Assembly (NCBI GenBank): GCA_030646565.1
Contig: JAUSLA010000015.1
Coordinates: 1-51,468 of the forward strand
DNA length: 51,468 bases
Direction of reading: 5' to 3'
DNA from: a bacterium
GTDB lineage: Bacteria; Patescibacteriota; Minisyncoccia; Minisyncoccales; RBG-13-42-11
Position numbers and translations under genes: made by a program. The notes beneath the pieces were generated by a model, which searched no databases, was not told the origin of the DNA, and saw nothing but the letters and a program-made list of their open reading frames with translations. Shown piece after piece: positions 31,435 through 37,084 of this stretch. Every line of letters begins with the position of its first letter. Position 1 is the stretch's first letter.

Positions 31435-33102
31435 ATGTTCAATAAACTTAACCTTTCCATTGTTATTTTGGCCTTAGCCACCGGTATTTTGGGTTTTTAT
31501 TATTATCAGAAAAATATCTACTCAAAGGAAACGCTTAAATTGGAAATTTTGAGCCAGGATTCGGTCGACCTCCTTGAAGAAGTTGAATATATTGTTAAAT
31601 ATAAAAACAACGGAAACGCCCGGTTGGAAGAGCCGGAACTTACTTTTGAATTTCCGGAATACTCCATTCCAGCAGGAGAGAATTCTTTAAGGGTCGTTAA
31701 AAAAACCGAAGATCTGGGAGGGCCTATTTATCCCGGCCAGGAAAAAATATTCAGGTTCAAAGCAAGACTTTTAGGCAAGGAGAATGAGGCAAAAATTGCC
31801 AAGGCCACTTTGTCTTACCAACCCAAAAATTTGAAAGCCCGTTATGAATCCGCTACCAGTTTTATTACCGTAATTAAAAAAGTGCCCCTTACTTTTGAAT
31901 TTGACCTGCCCTCCCAAAGCGAATCAGGAAAAGATATCAGATTCAAATTAAATTATTTTTCCAATACAGATTATCCTATTCAAAACTTAAGAATTACAGT
32001 TGAATATCCTTCAGATTTTGAGTTTATTGAATCAACGCCAAAGTCCCTGGAAAAAATAGAGTGGGATTTAGGTTCTTTGAACAAAGCAGAAGGCGGCCGG
32101 ATTGAAATTGCGGGAAAATTAAGGGGCAATATTAACGACGAGAAAATCTTTCAAGCGAAAATAGGAATCTGGCAGGGCGGAGAATTTATTTTATTGAAAA
32201 CAGCGCAAAAGGGAGTGGAGATAGCCAAGCCCGACATTAATATTACCCAGCAAATCAACGGCAGCCCCGATTATACGGCTTCGCCCGGAGATCTTCTGCA
32301 TTATGAAATTTCTTTCAAGAACTTTGGAGAAGTGCCATTGACCAATCTTTTTTTGATAAACAGATTAGACGGGGCAGCATTTGATTTTCAGACGCTCAAA
32401 TCCAATTCCGGAGATTTTGAACCCGGAGACAATTCAGTTGTCTTTGACTGGAAACGGGTTCAAGAGCTTCAATTTTTAAATGTCGGAGGAGAAGGAAAGG
32501 TTGAATTTTGGATAAAATTGAAAGAGGACTTCGGAGTTCTTAACAATACCGCAATTCAGAATAAAGTTTATCTTTCCCAGGCAAAAGAAGAGTTTATTAA
32601 TAAGGTCAATACAAAACTGGTCATAGACCAGAAGGGATATTTCCAGGATGAAATTTTTGGTAATTCAGGCCCTATACCCCCTAAAGTCGGAGAGAGCACC
32701 ACTTATACAATAACCTGGCAAGCGAAAAATTATTATAATAATACAAAAAACATTAAAGTAAAAGCTGTTTTACCGAGAGAAGTGAAGCTTACCGGCAAAA
32801 TTTTTCCGGAAGGAGAAGCTGGTAAATTCGCTTTTGATTCCCTTTCGCGTGAACTAGTTTGGGAGGTTGGCGAAATGTCTGCGGGCCAGGGAGTCCAAAA
32901 CTCTCCGCTAAATATCTCTTTTCAGGTTGTGTTTATCCCGACTGCTTCGCAAATAGGAATGACAGCAGAACTCATCGGCCAAGCCAGTATTACGGGAGAG
33001 GACCAATGGACAAAGGACTCTATTTTAGCTCTTGATTCCGCTATCACCACCGATTTGCCGGACGACGACACTGTTTCCGAACAGCAAGGCATCGTCCAGT
33101 AG
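31435..33102 (+). CDS. Membrane-anchored surface protein with repeated beta-sandwich (DUF11/CARDB-like) regions
   Basis: An N-terminal transmembrane helix is followed by repeated segments of the kind Y.I.Y.N.G...L.N. I made no specific family call. Confidence 0.5.
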   Translation: MFNKLNLSIVILALATGILGFYYYQKNIYSKETLKLEILSQDSVDLLEEVEYIVKYKNNGNARLEEPELTFEFPEYSIPAGENSLRVVKKTEDLGGPIYPGQEKIFRFKARLLGKENEAKIAKATLSYQPKNLKARYESATSFITVIKKVPLTFEFDLPSQSESGKDIRFKLNYFSNTDYPIQNLRITVEYPSDFEFIESTPKSLEKIEWDLGSLNKAEGGRIEIAGKLRGNINDEKIFQAKIGIWQGGEFILLKTAQKGVEIAKPDINITQQINGSPDYTASPGDLLHYEISFKNFGEVPLTNLFLINRLDGAAFDFQTLKSNSGDFEPGDNSVVFDWKRVQELQFLNVGGEGKVEFWIKLKEDFGVLNNTAIQNKVYLSQAKEEFINKVNTKLVIDQKGYFQDEIFGNSGPIPPKVGESTTYTITWQAKNYYNNTKNIKVKAVLPREVKLTGKIFPEGEAGKFAFDSLSRELVWEVGEMSAGQGVQNSPLNISFQVVFIPTASQIGMTAELIGQASITGEDQWTKDSILALDSAITTDLPDDDTVSEQQGIVQ

Positions 33103-33221: not shown

Positions 33222-34541
33222 ATGCAAAAAATTGTATCTTTAGCTAAAAGACGGGGATTTATTTTTCAATCTTCGGAAATTTACGGCGGCATAGAAGCTT
33301 TTTGGGACTACGGGCCCTTGGGTTCCCTTTTAAAAAATAACATAAAACAGGAGTGGTTAAAAACTTTTGTTCAGAAAAGAGAAGACATAGTTTTGATTGA
33401 TACGCCAATTATTATGCATCCTAAAACTTGGGAAGCGTCAGGCCATTTAAAAAACTTTACAGATCCTCTGGTTGAATGCAAAAATTGCCATGGCAGATTC
33501 CGGGAAGACCATTTGATAAAAAAGGAATGCCCGAATTGCGGCAAAAAAGACTTCACCCCTTCAAAACAATTCAATCTAATGTTCAAAACATTTTTGGGGC
33601 CGGTTGAAGACGACTCCCACATCGCTTATTTAAGGCCGGAAACAGCCCAATCAATGTTTACGGATTTTAATCTGGCGCAAGAATCAATGCGGCTGAAACT
33701 GCCTTTCGGAATAGCGCAAATCGGCCGTTCTTTCAGAAATGAAATTACTACCGGTAATTTTATTTTTCGCTCAAGAGAATTTGAACAGGCTGAAATTGAA
33801 TATTTTGTGAAACCCGGCGAAGACGAAAAATTTTTTGAAGAATGGGTTGATAATTGGGAAAATTTTATTCTTAATCTCGGCATTAAAAAAGAAAATCTAA
33901 GAAGGTATGAACATAAAAAAGAGGCCTTATCTCATTATTCCAAAAGAACAATTGATATTGAGTATAAATATCCTTTTGGCTGGGCGGAGCTTACCGGTAT
34001 CGCGAATAGAACTAATTATGACCTTTCCCAGCATTCTAAGTTCTCGGGAAAAGAATTAGTTTATTTTGACGAAGAAACCAAAGAAAAATATACTCCTTTT
34101 GTGATAGAACCGAGTTTGGGAATAGACAGGCTTTTATTGGCATTGCTATGCGATGCTTATCAGGAAATTGAAGGCGGAAGAACCGAAACTACAAAATCTG
34201 CCAAAGAAACAGAGATTGTTTTAAAATTAAATAAAAAAATAGCGCCGGTCAAAGTTGCGGTTTTACCCCTGGTAAAGAACAAGCCGGAATTGGTCAAAAA
34301 AGCAAAAGAGGTTTATCAATTATTAAAACCCCATTTTATCTGCCAATATGACGAAGTCGGCTCAATCGGAAGAAGGTATCGTAGGATAGACGAGATAGGC
34401 TGCCCTTTTGCGATAACTGTTGATTTTGAAACACTGGAAAAAGGAGATGTTACTCTGCGCAACCGCGACACGATGAAGCAGGAAAGGGTAAAAGTAGAAG
34501 AATTAGTCAAAGCGATAAAAGAAAAATTGGAAGAAGAGTAA
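33222..34541 (+). CDS. glyQS: Glycine--tRNA ligase (class II, alpha2 type)
   Basis: The protein starts MQKIVSLAKRRGFIFQSSEIYGG and has FRNEITTGNFIFRSREFEQAEIEYF and GIDRLL. I placed the start at ATG 33222, downstream of the repeat. Confidence 0.9.
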   Translation: MQKIVSLAKRRGFIFQSSEIYGGIEAFWDYGPLGSLLKNNIKQEWLKTFVQKREDIVLIDTPIIMHPKTWEASGHLKNFTDPLVECKNCHGRFREDHLIKKECPNCGKKDFTPSKQFNLMFKTFLGPVEDDSHIAYLRPETAQSMFTDFNLAQESMRLKLPFGIAQIGRSFRNEITTGNFIFRSREFEQAEIEYFVKPGEDEKFFEEWVDNWENFILNLGIKKENLRRYEHKKEALSHYSKRTIDIEYKYPFGWAELTGIANRTNYDLSQHSKFSGKELVYFDEETKEKYTPFVIEPSLGIDRLLLALLCDAYQEIEGGRTETTKSAKETEIVLKLNKKIAPVKVAVLPLVKNKPELVKKAKEVYQLLKPHFICQYDEVGSIGRRYRRIDEIGCPFAITVDFETLEKGDVTLRNRDTMKQERVKVEELVKAIKEKLEEE

Positions 34542-34586
34542 AAAGAAGGTTTGACGTAATTGAAAAATAAATTATAATAGAATTAT

Positions 34587-34787
34587 ATGGTAAAAGTAGT
34601 TGAGAGAAATTCAATAAAAATAGGCAAAGAACCGGTAGTGATTTTGACATTGAAAAAATGGGAAGAAATTGAAGAAACCATAGAGGATTTAGAAGATGCC
34701 GCGAGATTTAATATTGCTTTTGAGGAAAGCCGAGGTAAGAACTCCATTAGTTTAGAAAAGATAAAGAAAAAATATAAATTAAAATAA
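34587..34787 (+). CDS. Type II antitoxin (small, acidic C-terminus)
   Basis: This 66-aa ORF ends 1 nt before the RelE-like toxin gene begins, the classic antitoxin-toxin arrangement. Confidence 0.6.
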   Translation: MVKVVERNSIKIGKEPVVILTLKKWEEIEETIEDLEDAARFNIAFEESRGKNSISLEKIKKKYKLK

Positions 34788-35072
34788 ATGTTCCAAGTTC
34801 TTTTTAGTTCTCGAGCAGAAAGAGAATTTGATAAATTATCCGCAGCATTAAAACAAGAATTTTATATTGAATTTAAAAAACTTTCAGAAAATCCGTTTTT
34901 ACATCCGCAAGTTAGAAAAATCGAAGGAACTAAATTTGGCTATCGCCTTCGTCTCGGACGCTGGCGAATTTTATTTGCCTTCTTTCAAAAAGAAAAAAGA
35001 ATTGAAATTGTTGATATATTTTTGAAAAAAGGTAGGGGAGATTATCGTAAAAGAAAACATCTTTTAGGTTAA
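34788..35072 (+). CDS. RelE/ParE-family type II toxin
   Basis: The 94-aa protein has FKKLSENPF...KIEGTKFGYRLRLGRWRILF...IEIVDI, the typical RelE/StbE pattern. Confidence 0.75.
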   Translation: MFQVLFSSRAEREFDKLSAALKQEFYIEFKKLSENPFLHPQVRKIEGTKFGYRLRLGRWRILFAFFQKEKRIEIVDIFLKKGRGDYRKRKHLLG

Positions 35073-35076
35073 ATCC

Positions 35077-35158
35077 CTGCGACCGTGACACAATGAAACA
35101 GGAAAGAATAAAGACTGGTGAATTAATAAAAAACCTCGGGCTTTGTTTAAAAAATTAA
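35077..35158 (+). pseudogene. Displaced duplicate of the glyQS 3' end
   Basis: CTGCGACCGTGACACAATGAAACAGGAAAGAATAAAGACTGGTGAATTAATAAAAAAC... aligns to glyQS 34455-34520. The peptides compare as RDTMKQERIKTGELIK versus RDTMKQERVKVEELVK. Confidence 0.65.
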
Positions 35159-35291
35159 ACAGTTGCCAGTATTTGTACAAGCCCTTTAGGGCTTGATTTT
35201 TTATGGAAGGATGATATAATCCGGGCAGAATAAAAGTGCTGATTTATCGGTCGCCTGACCTTAATGGCAGGCAAAAAAGGAGGAAGCGAAA

Positions 35292-35639
35292 ATGCCATTG
35301 GTTGTCGTGAACAAGAACCCCGAGAAGATTGATTGCGGATTACTGGAAAGGCTTGTTGATCGTCTACCAGGATTGGTAGCCAGTGCCTTAACTTGCGAGC
35401 ATCCTGACGGAGGATTAGAAGCTCAAGATGTTGAAGTCTGGGTGCAGGATTTTGGCCCCAATGATATAAATACAACAGACGTAGAAATTATAATTTGGGC
35501 TAATCTGTATCCGGAGAGGCAGGCGAATCTCGATGATAGGCGAGAGAAAATCTGCAAAGGGGTTCGGTTAATATTGCCAAAAATGATTAAGGGTTTTGTG
35601 TGGGTTATTTTGAATCCGGGTTCGTTTGGAGAATTCTAA
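35292..35639 (+). CDS. Hypothetical protein, visibly GC-richer than its neighbours
   Basis: A strong SD (AAAGGAGGAAGCGAAAATG) precedes the gene and the protein starts MPLVVV. The antisense track ORF 35155..35475 has no comparable support. Confidence 0.5.
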   Translation: MPLVVVNKNPEKIDCGLLERLVDRLPGLVASALTCEHPDGGLEAQDVEVWVQDFGPNDINTTDVEIIIWANLYPERQANLDDRREKICKGVRLILPKMIKGFVWVILNPGSFGEF

Positions 35640-35757
35640 GTTCTTTTCCGCAAGTTTGCGAGAGTATAGGGAGTGGGGCAAAAAGGGTTTATACCCTTTG
35701 AGCTTCACCCCCCATTTTTATTTCTTTAATTTATGAAAAATTTCTGCTATAATTAAA

Positions 35758-37026
35758 TTGCTTATGTTCAAGAAAATTACTTTAAAAAATGGCTTGCGGA
35801 TTATTGTTGTTCCTCAAAAAAGCACCCAAGCAGTAACGGTTTTAGTTTTGGTCGGGACTGGCTCTAAATATGAAACAAAAGAGATAAGCGGCATTTCCCA
35901 TTTTTTAGAGCATATGTTTTTCAAGGGGACAAAAAAGAGGCCGGACAACGTAGAAATTGCCGAGACATTAGATAAGGTGGGCGGAATTTACAATGCTTTT
36001 ACAGGTGAAGATTATACCGGATATTTTGCCAAGGTGGCAGCTTCCAATTTTGATTTGGCTCTGGATTGGGTTTCTGATATTTTTTTGAACTCCAATTTGC
36101 CGGGAAAAGAAATAGAGAAAGAGAAAGGAGTGATTATCGAAGAGATTAATATGCTATATGACAATCCTATGGCTTATGTCGGGCTTTTATGGAACAAACT
36201 CTTGTATGGCGATCAGCCGGCCGGTTGGGATATTGCCGGCGCAAAAGAAACGGTTTCTGCAATAAACCGCCAAAAGCTGCTGGATTATTTTAATAATCAT
36301 TATATCTCTTCAAACACCATTGTTTGTTTAGCCGGAAATTTCAAGGAACAGCAAGCCATTGAAAAGACAAAGAGATATTTTTCTTCTATGCGAATAAGCA
36401 ACCCCGCGGTTAAGCAAAAAGTTATTGATGCTCAAGAGCAACCCAAATCATTAGTTCATTATAAAGAGACAGACCAAACGCATCTTCGTTTGGGAGTGAG
36501 GGGCTTTAATCTTTTTCACCCCAAAAGATATGTTCAGGATATCTTGGGGAACGTTTTAGGGGGGATGATGAGTTCCCGTTTGTTTATTGAGATTAGGGAA
36601 AAATTAGGACTGGCTTATTATATTAAAACAGAAATTGAATCCAATCCCGACACGGGTTTTTTGGTAACTGCGGCCGGTGTTGACAGCAAGAGAATAGAAA
36701 AAGCGATTTCGGTCATTTTGAAAGAATATAAAAAAATATCGGAGGAAAAAGTAAGTCCCTCCGAACTGAAAAAAACAAAAAACAATCTCAAAGGAAGGCT
36801 TTCTTTGTCGATGGAGTCATCCGACGCCCAGGCCTCTTTTTACGGCATTCAAGAGCTTTTAGAGAAAAAAGTTATGACCCCTGCGGAGTTTTTTAAAGAA
36901 ATTGATAAAGTTAGCGCAAATGATATGTTAAAAGTGGCAAAAGATATTTTCCAGCCAAAAAATCTCAATTTAGTTTTAGTGGGTCCATTCAAAGACAATA
37001 CCAGATTTGAAAAATTATTGGCGTAA
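35758..37026 (+). CDS. M16 family (insulinase/pitrilysin-like) zinc peptidase
   Basis: The protein has the inverted zinc motif HFLEHMFFKGT. An alternative ATG start is at 35764. Confidence 0.8.
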   Translation: MLMFKKITLKNGLRIIVVPQKSTQAVTVLVLVGTGSKYETKEISGISHFLEHMFFKGTKKRPDNVEIAETLDKVGGIYNAFTGEDYTGYFAKVAASNFDLALDWVSDIFLNSNLPGKEIEKEKGVIIEEINMLYDNPMAYVGLLWNKLLYGDQPAGWDIAGAKETVSAINRQKLLDYFNNHYISSNTIVCLAGNFKEQQAIEKTKRYFSSMRISNPAVKQKVIDAQEQPKSLVHYKETDQTHLRLGVRGFNLFHPKRYVQDILGNVLGGMMSSRLFIEIREKLGLAYYIKTEIESNPDTGFLVTAAGVDSKRIEKAISVILKEYKKISEEKVSPSELKKTKNNLKGRLSLSMESSDAQASFYGIQELLEKKVMTPAEFFKEIDKVSANDMLKVAKDIFQPKNLNLVLVGPFKDNTRFEKLLA

Positions 37027-37030
37027 CGGT

Positions 37031-37084
37031 CAAAGAGGACTTTGTCCTCTTTTCCACCTTCGTCCCGTAAAACGGGACTCGGTT
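37031..37084 (-). repeat. Family A element filling the M16-perM spacer
   Basis: The sequence is CAAAGAGGACTTTGTCCTCTTTTCCACCTTCGTCCCGTAAAACGGGACTCGGTT. Confidence 0.85.

What the first reader, a model, noticed from the sequence alone, without database searches (positions are those of the whole stretch)
34455..35158. Toxin-antitoxin pair inserted at the 3' end of glyQS, flanked by a displaced copy of that gene end
The last ~65 nt of glyQS (from 34455) recur, about 70 percent identical by eye, immediately after the RelE-like toxin gene (35077-35158). The displaced copy keeps an open frame encoding RDTMKQERIKTGELIKNL...stop. This is the signature left when an integrating element carries its own copy of the target gene's 3' end and displaces the native one. 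Here the cargo between the two copies is only the antitoxin-toxin pair (~620 nt), with no integrase, so it may be the remnant of a larger island.
Basis: partly seen in the sequence, partly recalled or inferred. Interest (0 to 1): 0.6.

Follow-up and report, generated by a model that had tools for sequence, protein, structure and literature searches.

The report
Toxin-antitoxin cassette displacing glyQS gene end
A small toxin-antitoxin gene pair was spliced into the end of the essential glycyl-tRNA synthetase gene of an uncultured ultra-small bacterium, pushing an older copy of the gene's end downstream; no integrase is present, and the same cassette occupies this spot in distantly related bacteria.

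Summary
The last ~85 nt of glyQS (34455-34541) recur directly after the toxin stop (35075-35158). The core is 39/53 identical (z about 8 against shuffles), and a glyQS-end profile hits it at E 2e-9. Between the copies lies one self-contained cassette: a sigma-70 promoter, a small antitoxin and a RelE-fold toxin.

The empty-site test supports insertion. Relatives without the pair (GlyRS 83-84% identical, and over 30 others) carry one gene end. The closest relative with the pair carries two.

The same cassette sits in the glyQS-to-M16-peptidase interval in at least six families of the order. Cassette similarity does not follow host similarity, so cassettes are exchanged horizontally.

In four genomes, one with a different target gene, the two gene ends differ mainly at synonymous sites (dN/dS about 0.1). 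They are therefore alleles from different lineages, not a decaying local duplicate.

No integrase is linked to the cassette in any genome, and its borders are tight. A "remnant of a larger island" is therefore unlikely.

Best reading: integrase-free, homology-anchored recombination. This resembles "insertion with long target duplication" of restriction-modification genes and the displacement arrays at Rhs/T6SS loci. Interest is moderate.

The parts
33222..34541 (+). glyQS (class II glycyl-tRNA synthetase, 439 aa), intact
   Evidence: Pfam tRNA-synt_2b and HGTP_anticodon. It is 92% identical to P0002 and has thousands of homologs.
34455..34541 (+). Copy 1: the working 3' end of glyQS (about 29 codons plus stop) that is repeated downstream
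   Evidence: nhmmer score 65 bits against the glyQS-end profile.
34551..34578 (+). Cassette promoter TTGACG-16 nt-TATAAT, 10 nt after the glyQS stop
   Evidence: 11/12 match to consensus. The same TTTGACA-N17-TAtAAT-N7-ATGG leader is conserved in all related cassettes.
34587..34787 (+). Antitoxin, 66 aa, weakly Phd/YefM- or RelB-like
   Evidence: Pfam PF02604 E 0.004, below cut-off. NCBIfam phd_fam and RelB hits are weak. It always lies directly upstream of the toxin in about 20 loci.
34788..35072 (+). Toxin, 94 aa, RelE/ParE superfamily with a RelE-like fold
   Evidence: Pfam PF05016 scores 25 bits against a cut-off of 23. A profile search hits RelE3 3bpq and aRelE 1wmi. The AF2 model has pLDDT 91.6, and its top Foldseek hits are E. 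coli RelE 4fxe_E (TM 0.74/0.83) and 1wmi.
35075..35158 (+). Copy 2: displaced, partly decayed glyQS 3' end, with its own in-register stop codon
   Evidence: A second copy occurs only in TA-bearing genomes.
35178..35204 (+). Hairpin plus T-run terminator after copy 2. It now ends the TA transcript and may be the former glyQS terminator.
35292..35639 (+). ORF115, a second, separately acquired small gene at the same spot. It has its own promoter at 35193-35220 and a hairpin at 35666-35715.
   Evidence: It is absent from the closest relative L032. G+C is 0.42-0.455 against 0.27-0.355 for the TA cassette. Homologs occur only in unrelated contexts.
35764..37026 (+). M16 peptidase gene, the ancestral downstream neighbour of glyQS
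   Evidence: Pfam. It is adjacent to or overlaps glyQS in TA-less relatives.

Best explanation
A self-contained type II toxin-antitoxin cassette (own promoter, small antitoxin, RelE-fold toxin; 34551-35072) entered the chromosome by recombination, without a dedicated integrase. The incoming DNA carried the cassette joined to a foreign allele of the last ~30 codons of glyQS. That conserved gene end served as the homology arm. The far end was joined near glyQS codon 410, either by an illegitimate joint or by single-crossover (Campbell-type) integration of a circularised fragment. GlyRS therefore stayed intact, now ending in copy 1. The other version of the gene end was pushed behind the toxin gene as a fossil (copy 2). 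Which copy is the resident one is inferred from relatives and not shown for the window. The fossil now serves only as the 3' untranslated tail of the TA transcript. Shown: the insertion, the empty sites, the lack of any linked integrase, recurrence at the same site, horizontal exchange of cassette alleles, and the selection signature between the two ends. Inferred: the recombination route, and DNA uptake by transformation (RecA and ComEC are encoded). Later events were insertion of ORF115 between copy 2 and the peptidase gene in this lineage, and allele replacement inside the cassette in the sister lineage.
For: (1) Empty sites. L033-L040 (GlyRS 83-84% identical) and G007/G004 have one gene end followed by the M16 gene. 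None of more than 30 TA-less loci has a second copy.
(2) The closest relative L032 (GlyRS 92%) has glyQS-TA-copy 2-M16. Its copy 2 runs into the same downstream hairpin sequence as in TA-less L036/L037. In L043, the stop of copy 2 overlaps the start of the next gene (TAAATG).
(3) The cassette lies in the glyQS-M16 interval in WIN, L046, L043, L048, L041, L047, L054, L058, L065, L067 and L056. Yet only 12 of 401 genomes of the order carry it.
(4) Cassette similarity is uncoupled from host similarity. L046 is 90% nt identical to L043 and L052 (M16 only 67-70% aa) but 78% to the window (M16 85%). The window toxin is closest to L041 (84% aa, GlyRS 52%). Mantel r 0.17, p 0.24.
(5) Copy 1 against copy 2 gives dN/dS 0.16 (L043), 0.09 (L048) and 0.09 (L064). 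In the window pS is about 0.8 against pN 0.19-0.34.
(6) There is a second target. In L064 a related cassette is flanked by a ~150-nt duplicate of the 3' end of a different gene.
(7) No integrase is linked. Each genome examined has at most one Xer-like recombinase (none detected in G002), on another contig. RecA and ComEC are present.
(8) The last ~270-330 nt of glyQS no longer group with the TA-less sister clade, which the preceding 690 nt do at 100/99 support.
(9) Cassette G+C is 0.27-0.355 against 0.325-0.43 in the flanking genes.
Against: The recombination route is inferred, not observed. The mosaic signal in glyQS is weak and the partition was chosen after seeing the data (AU p 0.097 for 327 nt, 0.026 for 267 nt). 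At protein level the C-terminal part shows no clear alternative donor. About 90 nt is too short to say which window copy is native or which lineage donated copy 1. In L032 the two copies are 48/48 identical. That fits a true target duplication or later gene conversion better than two foreign alleles. In four lineages copy 2 begins within 0-16 nt of the toxin stop, which random illegitimate joints do not obviously predict. Microhomology at the joints is not convincing.
Confidence: 0.6

Rival explanations
1. First reader's reading. An integrase-bearing island integrated site-specifically into the 3' end of glyQS, bringing a replacement gene end as e14 does at icd. It then lost everything but the addictive TA pair.
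For: The topology fits attL/attR: working gene end, cargo, displaced gene end. Empty sites exist. TA pairs resist deletion (general knowledge).
Against: No integrase lies at this site in the window or in about 20 related loci. Each genome has at most a single Xer-like recombinase, elsewhere. The deletion would have had to end within a few nt of the toxin stop on one side. It would also have had to leave the promoter 10 nt from the glyQS stop on the other, in several lineages independently. The two copies share no identical core longer than 8 nt. The 5' edge of copy 2 differs between lineages. The same architecture occurs at a different gene in L064.
Confidence: 0.1
2. True 'insertion with long target duplication' (Nobusato/Furuta type). 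The cassette inserted into staggered breaks or by replication repair, so both copies were first identical copies of the resident glyQS end. They diverged afterwards.
For: L032 has a 48/48 identical repeat. No mobility gene is present. The pattern is documented for restriction-modification genes, mostly in competent species (PMC2853133).
Against: In the window, L043, L048 and L064 the copies differ by 13-40% with dN/dS of 0.09-0.16. A silent fossil should accumulate replacement changes and frameshifts as fast as silent ones. Synonymous differences near saturation (pS 0.7-0.8) would imply great age, yet the fossils keep open frames and in-register stops.
Confidence: 0.17
3. The cassette and the duplicated end are ancient at this locus and vertically inherited across the order. 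Many losses followed, and gene conversion from copy 1 keeps copy 2 recognisable. The apparent horizontal transfer is only allele replacement between cassettes.
For: Ten of the 12 cassette-bearing genomes have it in the same three-gene neighbourhood. Very divergent alleles (46-48% aa) sit at the same place in G002. L032 shows conversion-like identity. The allele swap in L046 is confined to the cassette interior.
Against: It needs very many losses (389 of 401 genomes lack it). TA-less sister clades show no scar. The edges of copy 2 and its downstream neighbours differ between lineages. It does not explain how the duplicate arose in the first place.
Confidence: 0.1
4. Chance similarity or assembly artefact.
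For: The sequence is AT-rich, and the genome is a metagenome-assembled genome in 74 contigs.
Against: z is about 8 against shuffles, and the profile E-value is 2e-9. The frame and stop are in register. An independent contig is identical. The same layout occurs in other studies' assemblies.
Confidence: 0.01

Closest known systems
Insertion with long target duplication of restriction-modification gene complexes (Nobusato et al. 2000, Gene 259:99; Furuta et al. 2010, PMC2853133)
   Same: An addiction-type gene pair is inserted with no transposase or integrase. It is flanked by direct repeats longer than 30 bp that are single-copy in the empty-site genome. The repeats often overlap the 3' end of the neighbouring gene. 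Most hosts are naturally competent.
   Different: There the repeats are nearly identical to each other and to the target. Here they are 60-87% identical with a purifying-selection signature, pointing to two alleles; only L032 is 48/48. The cargo is a TA pair, not an R-M system. The same site is used across an order.
Sequential displacement of 3' modules at T6SS effector-immunity, Rhs and CDI loci by homology-facilitated illegitimate recombination (Kirchberger et al. 2017, PMC5361080; de Vries and Wackernagel 2002; Prudhomme et al. 2002, as cited there)
   Same: A conserved upstream sequence anchors incoming DNA. The new 3' end plus cargo takes over, and the old 3' end is shifted downstream as an orphan. 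Alleles in one array come from different strains rather than from duplication.
   Different: In those systems the displaced part is itself the variable toxin/immunity module. Here the displaced part is the tail of a housekeeping synthetase, and the cargo is an unrelated selfish cassette.
Integrative elements that insert into the 3' end of a protein gene and supply a replacement end (e14 at icd in E. coli; streptococcal ICEs at rpsI, rplL and others; from my own knowledge)
   Same: Working gene end, cargo, displaced gene end, and empty sites in relatives.
   Different: Those carry a tyrosine or serine recombinase and an exact core. Neither is present here.
RelBE-type type II toxin-antitoxin systems
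   Same: A small antitoxin gene abuts a ~94-aa toxin. The toxin has the RelE fold and a Pfam RelE/ParE-superfamily match.
   Different: The antitoxin matches Phd/RelB models only below their cut-offs. Activity is untested.

Membership tests
RelE/ParE-superfamily toxin (type II TA) | Sequence match to the family model above its curated cut-off | tested here: met
   PF05016 scores 25.0 bits against a cut-off of 23. Ten of 11 cassette toxins match.
RelE/ParE-superfamily toxin (type II TA) | RelE-type alpha/beta fold | tested here: met
   The AF2 model has pLDDT 91.6. Top Foldseek hits are E. coli RelE 4fxe_E (E 2.6e-6, TM 0.74/0.83), aRelE 1wmi and Mtb RelE1. ParE entries rank lower.
RelE/ParE-superfamily toxin (type II TA) | Two-gene operon with a small upstream antitoxin gene abutting the toxin gene | tested here: met
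   The antitoxin stop is at 34785-34787 and the toxin ATG at 34788. The arrangement is conserved in about 20 loci.
RelE/ParE-superfamily toxin (type II TA) | Toxicity neutralised by the antitoxin; ribosome-dependent mRNA cleavage | not testable with these tools
   Needs expression in a laboratory strain.
Phd/YefM or RelB antitoxin | Match to the family model above cut-off | tested here: inconclusive
   PF02604 scores 17.4 bits (cut-off 29.8). TIGR01552 scores 16.3 (cut-off 20.8). RelB models score 14-15 (cut-off 50).
Integrase-driven integrative element at a gene 3' end (e14/icd type) | Recombinase gene inside the element, next to an att site | tested here: not met
   Nothing but the two TA genes lies between the copies. 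The only PF00589 gene of the genome is on contig C34. The same holds in five other cassette-bearing genomes.
Integrase-driven integrative element at a gene 3' end (e14/icd type) | Identical core sequence at both junctions, at the same position in all insertions | tested here: not met
   The longest exact match is 8 nt. The 5' edge of copy 2 differs between the window, L043, L046 and L048.
Integrase-driven integrative element at a gene 3' end (e14/icd type) | Empty site in relatives with a single gene end | tested here: met
   L033-L040, G007, G004 and more than 30 loci have a single nhmmer hit.
Insertion with long target duplication (Nobusato 2000; Furuta 2010) | Insert under 20 kb flanked by direct repeats over 30 bp that are single-copy in the empty genome, with no mobility genes | tested here: met
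   The repeat is about 85 nt and the insert about 530 nt. The empty sites and absence of an integrase are as above.
Insertion with long target duplication (Nobusato 2000; Furuta 2010) | Both repeats nearly identical to each other and to the target | tested here: not met
   The window core is 74% identical and the full repeat about 60%, with dN/dS well below 1. Only L032 has 48/48.
Homology-anchored displacement (HFIR-like) | The two copies are alleles of different origin | tested here: met
   dN/dS is 0.09-0.16 in three genomes. In the window pS is about 0.8 against pN 0.19-0.34.
Homology-anchored displacement (HFIR-like) | Donor-derived tract in the anchor gene upstream of the cargo | tested here: inconclusive
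   The partition trees disagree. AU p is 0.097 (327 nt) and 0.026 (267 nt, chosen post hoc). The protein-level signal is weak.
Homology-anchored displacement (HFIR-like) | Microhomology at the illegitimate joint | tested here: inconclusive
   Possible GTTA (window) and AAGAT (L048) overlaps, judged by eye only, in decayed sequence.
Integron gene cassette | IntI integrase and an attC site 3' of the cassette | tested here: not met
   No second tyrosine recombinase is present. No sequence after the toxin stop is shared among the cassettes. attC folding was not modelled.

The most novel reading that the evidence does not exclude
In Patescibacteria, this RelE-type cassette family may be an integrase-free hitch-hiker that uses the conserved tail of an essential gene as a portable homology arm. 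Each transfer by DNA uptake would overwrite the resident gene end with the donor's allele and leave the old end as a fossil. The glyQS-M16 junction would then act as an order-wide landing pad, where cassettes are gained, swapped and stacked with other small genes, and where the tails of essential genes become mosaic as a side effect.
Probability: 0.35. Interest if true: 0.6.

Novelty: new variant of a known kind. Interest (0 to 1): 0.42.

Why it matters
It provides a worked natural example of a selfish addiction module entering a tiny, streamlined genome at the very end of an essential gene without disabling it and without its own recombinase. Empty sites, a sister-lineage filled site and recurrent use of one site across families are all documented. 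The selection signature between the two gene ends is a simple test. It separates "a foreign allele came with the cargo" from "the target was duplicated", which the literature on long target duplications has left open. If general, the finding bears on how CPR bacteria acquire genes, on why small accessory genes cluster behind conserved genes, and on how the tails of housekeeping genes become mosaic.

Tried and rejected
- Third copy. I looked for a third glyQS-end copy between ORF115 and the peptidase gene, which tandem insertions would predict. Alignment and nhmmer found none.
- Fossil travelling with the cassette. The fossil is absent after the toxin in L049, L052, L053, L060-L063 and L066. 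The exception is L042, where glyQS is replaced upstream by rpmF.
- Cassette promoter as an older glyQS tail. This idea was prompted by L041, where glyQS reads through the -35 box. nhmmer gives no hit, so it is left as a curiosity.
- Native end and donor. About 90 nt is uninformative for assigning the native end or the donor of copy 1 from an identity matrix.
- Mosaic GlyRS at protein level. N-part and C-part identities are uncorrelated (r 0.09), but no clear alternative donor emerges.
- RNA gene as the repeated target in L064. Rfam and ARAGORN found nothing.
- ORF115 as part of the same element. Its homologs lie in unrelated contexts.
- One fetch, G170:C62, was not needed.
Full report
**What is there**

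The window comes from a 770-kb metagenome-assembled Patescibacteria genome; its best GlyRS matches are named Nealsonbacteria or Paceibacterota. The gene order is as follows:
- DUF11 surface protein (31435-33102)
- glyQS (33222-34541)
- a near-consensus promoter, TTGACG-16-TATAAT (34551-34578)
- a 66-aa antitoxin (34587-34787)
- a 94-aa toxin (34788-35072)
- a second copy of the glyQS end (35075-35158)
- a hairpin/T-run terminator (35178-35204)
- a 115-aa ORF with its own promoter and hairpin (35292-35639)
- the M16 peptidase gene (35764-37026)
- an AI-2E transporter gene

- The best ungapped match is 34459-34511 against 35079-35131, 39/53 identical. It is the top repeat family in the region.
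- Shuffles of the downstream 2 kb give 29.0 +/- 1.2, with a maximum of 33.
- The copy is in frame, DRDTMKQERIKTGELIKNLGLCLKN*, and its stop is in register with that of glyQS.
- A profile of 44 glyQS ends finds it at E 2.4e-9. Nothing else in the genome scores below E 0.5.
- A Logan contig from SRR13727527 is identical over 34563-37073, so the layout is not an assembly artefact.

**The cargo**

- The toxin passes the Pfam RelE/ParE model PF05016 (25 bits, cut-off 23).
- A profile of 11 cassette toxins hits RelE3 (3bpq) and archaeal RelE (1wmi).
- A confident AF2 model (pLDDT 91.6) is closest to E. coli RelE 4fxe_E and 1wmi, ahead of the ParE entries.
- The antitoxin resembles Phd/RelB only below cut-off.
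- Cassette G+C is 0.27-0.355, against 0.325-0.43 in the flanking genes.

**Empty-site test**

- In family-level relatives G007 and G004, glyQS overlaps the start of the M16 gene and no TA pair is present.
- Closer relatives (GlyRS 83-84%, L033-L040) have glyQS, 7-183 nt of small hairpin units, then M16. They have one gene end only.
- The closest relative (L032 = L046, GlyRS 92%, another study's assembly) has glyQS-antitoxin-toxin-copy 2-M16 and lacks ORF115.
- Its copy 2 continues into TAAATGTTCAATGAATCTTTGATTCATTTC. This is the same sequence that follows the glyQS stop in TA-less L036/L037, so copy 2 sits in native continuity.
- None of more than 30 TA-less loci has a second copy.

**The same cassette elsewhere**

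- Searches with the toxin recovered about 20 loci.
- The cassette, with a conserved TTTGACA-N17-TAtAAT-N7-ATGG leader, lies in the glyQS-to-M16 interval in the window, L046, L043/44/45, L048, L041, L047, L054, L058, L065 (G002), L067 and L056.
- It lies just after the next gene (AI-2E) in three genomes of one genus, and in other contexts in a few more.
- Only 12 of 401 genomes of the order carry it, spread over at least nine families.
- A displaced glyQS end follows the toxin in the window, L046, L043-45 (and L042) and L048. In L041, L047, L052, L054 and L065 the toxin stop abuts the M16 start within 5-26 nt.

**Horizontal exchange**

- Cassette similarity does not follow host similarity. L046's cassette is 90% nt identical to L043 and L052, and 93-100% over the central ~350 nt. 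Its M16 is only 67-70% aa identical to theirs.
- Against the window, its sister lineage (GlyRS 92%, M16 85%), L046's cassette is 78% identical.
- The window's toxin is closest to L041 (84% aa), whose GlyRS is 52% identical.
- Across eight loci, the Spearman correlation between TA and M16 identity is 0.17 (Mantel p 0.24).
- The high-identity tract in L046 is confined to the cassette interior. The window and L046 share the right-junction motif (toxin TAA, then CCC(T)GCGA). This suggests one ancestral insertion in their common ancestor, followed by an allele swap inside the cassette.

**The two gene ends are alleles, not a decaying duplicate**

- Codon-wise comparison of copy 1 and copy 2 gives dN/dS of 0.16 (L043), 0.09 (L048) and 0.09 (L064).
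- In the window, pS is 0.79-0.83 against pN 0.19-0.34.
- A fossil diverging in place should push the pairwise ratio toward about 0.5 and collect frameshifts. Instead the fossils keep open frames and in-register stops.
- This supports the idea that one end came in with the cargo as a foreign allele.
- L032 is the exception, with 48/48 identity and a 25-nt gap. This fits later gene conversion or a true duplication.

**A second target**

In L064 (G170, contig C51) a related cassette (toxin 53% and antitoxin 64% aa identical to the window's) is flanked by a ~150-nt duplicate of the 3' end of a Cys-rich protein gene. The alignment score is 91 against 22.5 +/- 2.5 for shuffles. Another TA pair follows. 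The architecture is therefore not specific to glyQS.

**No integrase**

- Only the two TA genes lie between the copies.
- The genome has one tyrosine recombinase, Xer-like, on contig C34.
- Four of five other cassette-bearing genomes likewise have a single one on another contig; the fifth (G002) has none.
- The two copies share no exact core longer than 8 nt, and the 5' edge of copy 2 differs among lineages.
- With such tight cassette borders, a "remnant of a larger island" would need precise deletions several times over.
- RecA and ComEC are encoded, and RecO lies nearby in syntenic relatives.

**A possible footprint of the homology anchor**

- For nt 301-990 of glyQS, the window and L032 are sister to TA-less L033/L037 (100/99 support).
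- For the last 327 nt they are not. They sit nearest the TA-bearing L043.
- Forcing the clade costs 21 lnL units: AU p 0.097 for 327 nt and 0.026 for 267 nt, with the partition chosen post hoc.
- Protein-level comparison is noisy. I treat this as suggestive only.

**Interpretation**

The evidence best fits integrase-free, homology-anchored insertion. DNA carrying a foreign glyQS tail plus the cassette recombined with the resident gene. The far end was joined near codon 410, or a circularised fragment integrated by a single crossover. The resident tail was pushed downstream.

Two known patterns are closest:
- "Insertion with long target duplication" of restriction-modification genes (Nobusato 2000; Furuta 2010, PMC2853133).
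- Displacement of 3' modules at T6SS/Rhs/CDI loci by homology-facilitated illegitimate recombination (Kirchberger 2017, PMC5361080).

It differs from the first in having diverged, selection-shaped repeats. It differs from the second in that the displaced piece is a housekeeping gene tail.

Three things remain unresolved:
- which window copy is native;
- why copy 2 begins so close to the toxin stop in every lineage;
- whether L032's identical repeat reflects conversion or a different route.

**Earlier notes of this scan**

Searches report similar TA-between-duplicated-gene-ends layouts in other genomes and pointed me to the Nobusato/Furuta papers, which I then read. I use these notes as leads, not as evidence.

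**Verdict**

The pair is inserted DNA that most likely brought its own gene end and displaced the resident one. It is not a decayed integrase island. This is a new variant of a known, under-appreciated insertion mode, of moderate interest.

Noticed in passing
window 35159-35760: ORF115 (35292-35639) is a separately acquired small gene at the same spot. It has its own promoter (35193-35220), higher G+C and a terminal hairpin. The closest relative L032 lacks it. Homologs (up to 72% identical, all 'hypothetical', Patescibacteria) lie in unrelated contexts. Function is unknown.
   Followed up: partly
L033 5318-5500; L037 5318-5373; L040 1820-1826: In TA-less relatives the glyQS-M16 spacer consists of small palindromic units (AATGAATCTTCGATTCATT, AATAAATTTTCAATTTATT). 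Copy number varies from zero (L040) to about five between near-identical strains.
   Followed up: no
L041 2780-2835: In this distant genome the glyQS reading frame runs through the cassette promoter. The -35 box TTGACA is the codons Asp-Leu-Thr, and the stop lies in the -10 region. No displaced copy is present.
   Followed up: partly
L042 2450-3400: This locus has the same cassette, displaced glyQS end, NUDIX gene and M16 start as L043. Upstream, however, lies rpmF (L32) instead of glyQS, and a double-hairpin repeat is inserted in the cassette leader. It is either a rearrangement at the cassette's left border or a chimeric assembly.
   Followed up: no
L064 (G170:C51), reverse strand, oriented 460-610 and 1251-1400: A related TA cassette is flanked by a ~150-nt duplicate of the 3' end of a Cys-rich protein gene (dN/dS 0.09). 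The upstream copy has an in-frame TAG. A second TA pair (62 aa plus a 144-aa PIN-like protein) follows directly.
   Followed up: partly
L056 1125-1170 and 2189-2235: A ~47-nt direct repeat (AAATC..TAGATGTTTAA..ACGCTTTGA) brackets the TA cassette plus a membrane-protein ORF in G361. Alignment score is 43 against a shuffle maximum of 36.
   Followed up: no
L043 2737-2775; L047 660-700; L052 150-190; L065 1139-1185; L067 (oriented) 1228-1265: A conserved leader motif lies upstream of the cassette's -35 box: (A)ATTTCAAAATTYCT...CGATYGTGGATTTTT. In several lineages it starts right after the glyQS stop. Its role (operator, UP element or recombination site) is unknown.
   Followed up: no
L065 (G002) 1219-1704; L067 (G170:C62): Very divergent alleles of the cassette (46-57% aa) occupy the same glyQS-M16 slot. 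The G170:C62 toxin carries an in-frame stop, so it is a decaying copy.
   Followed up: no
L043 3371-3766: A NUDIX hydrolase gene lies between the displaced glyQS end and M16 in the L043 lineage. Its start overlaps the fossil's stop codon (TAAATG).
   Followed up: no
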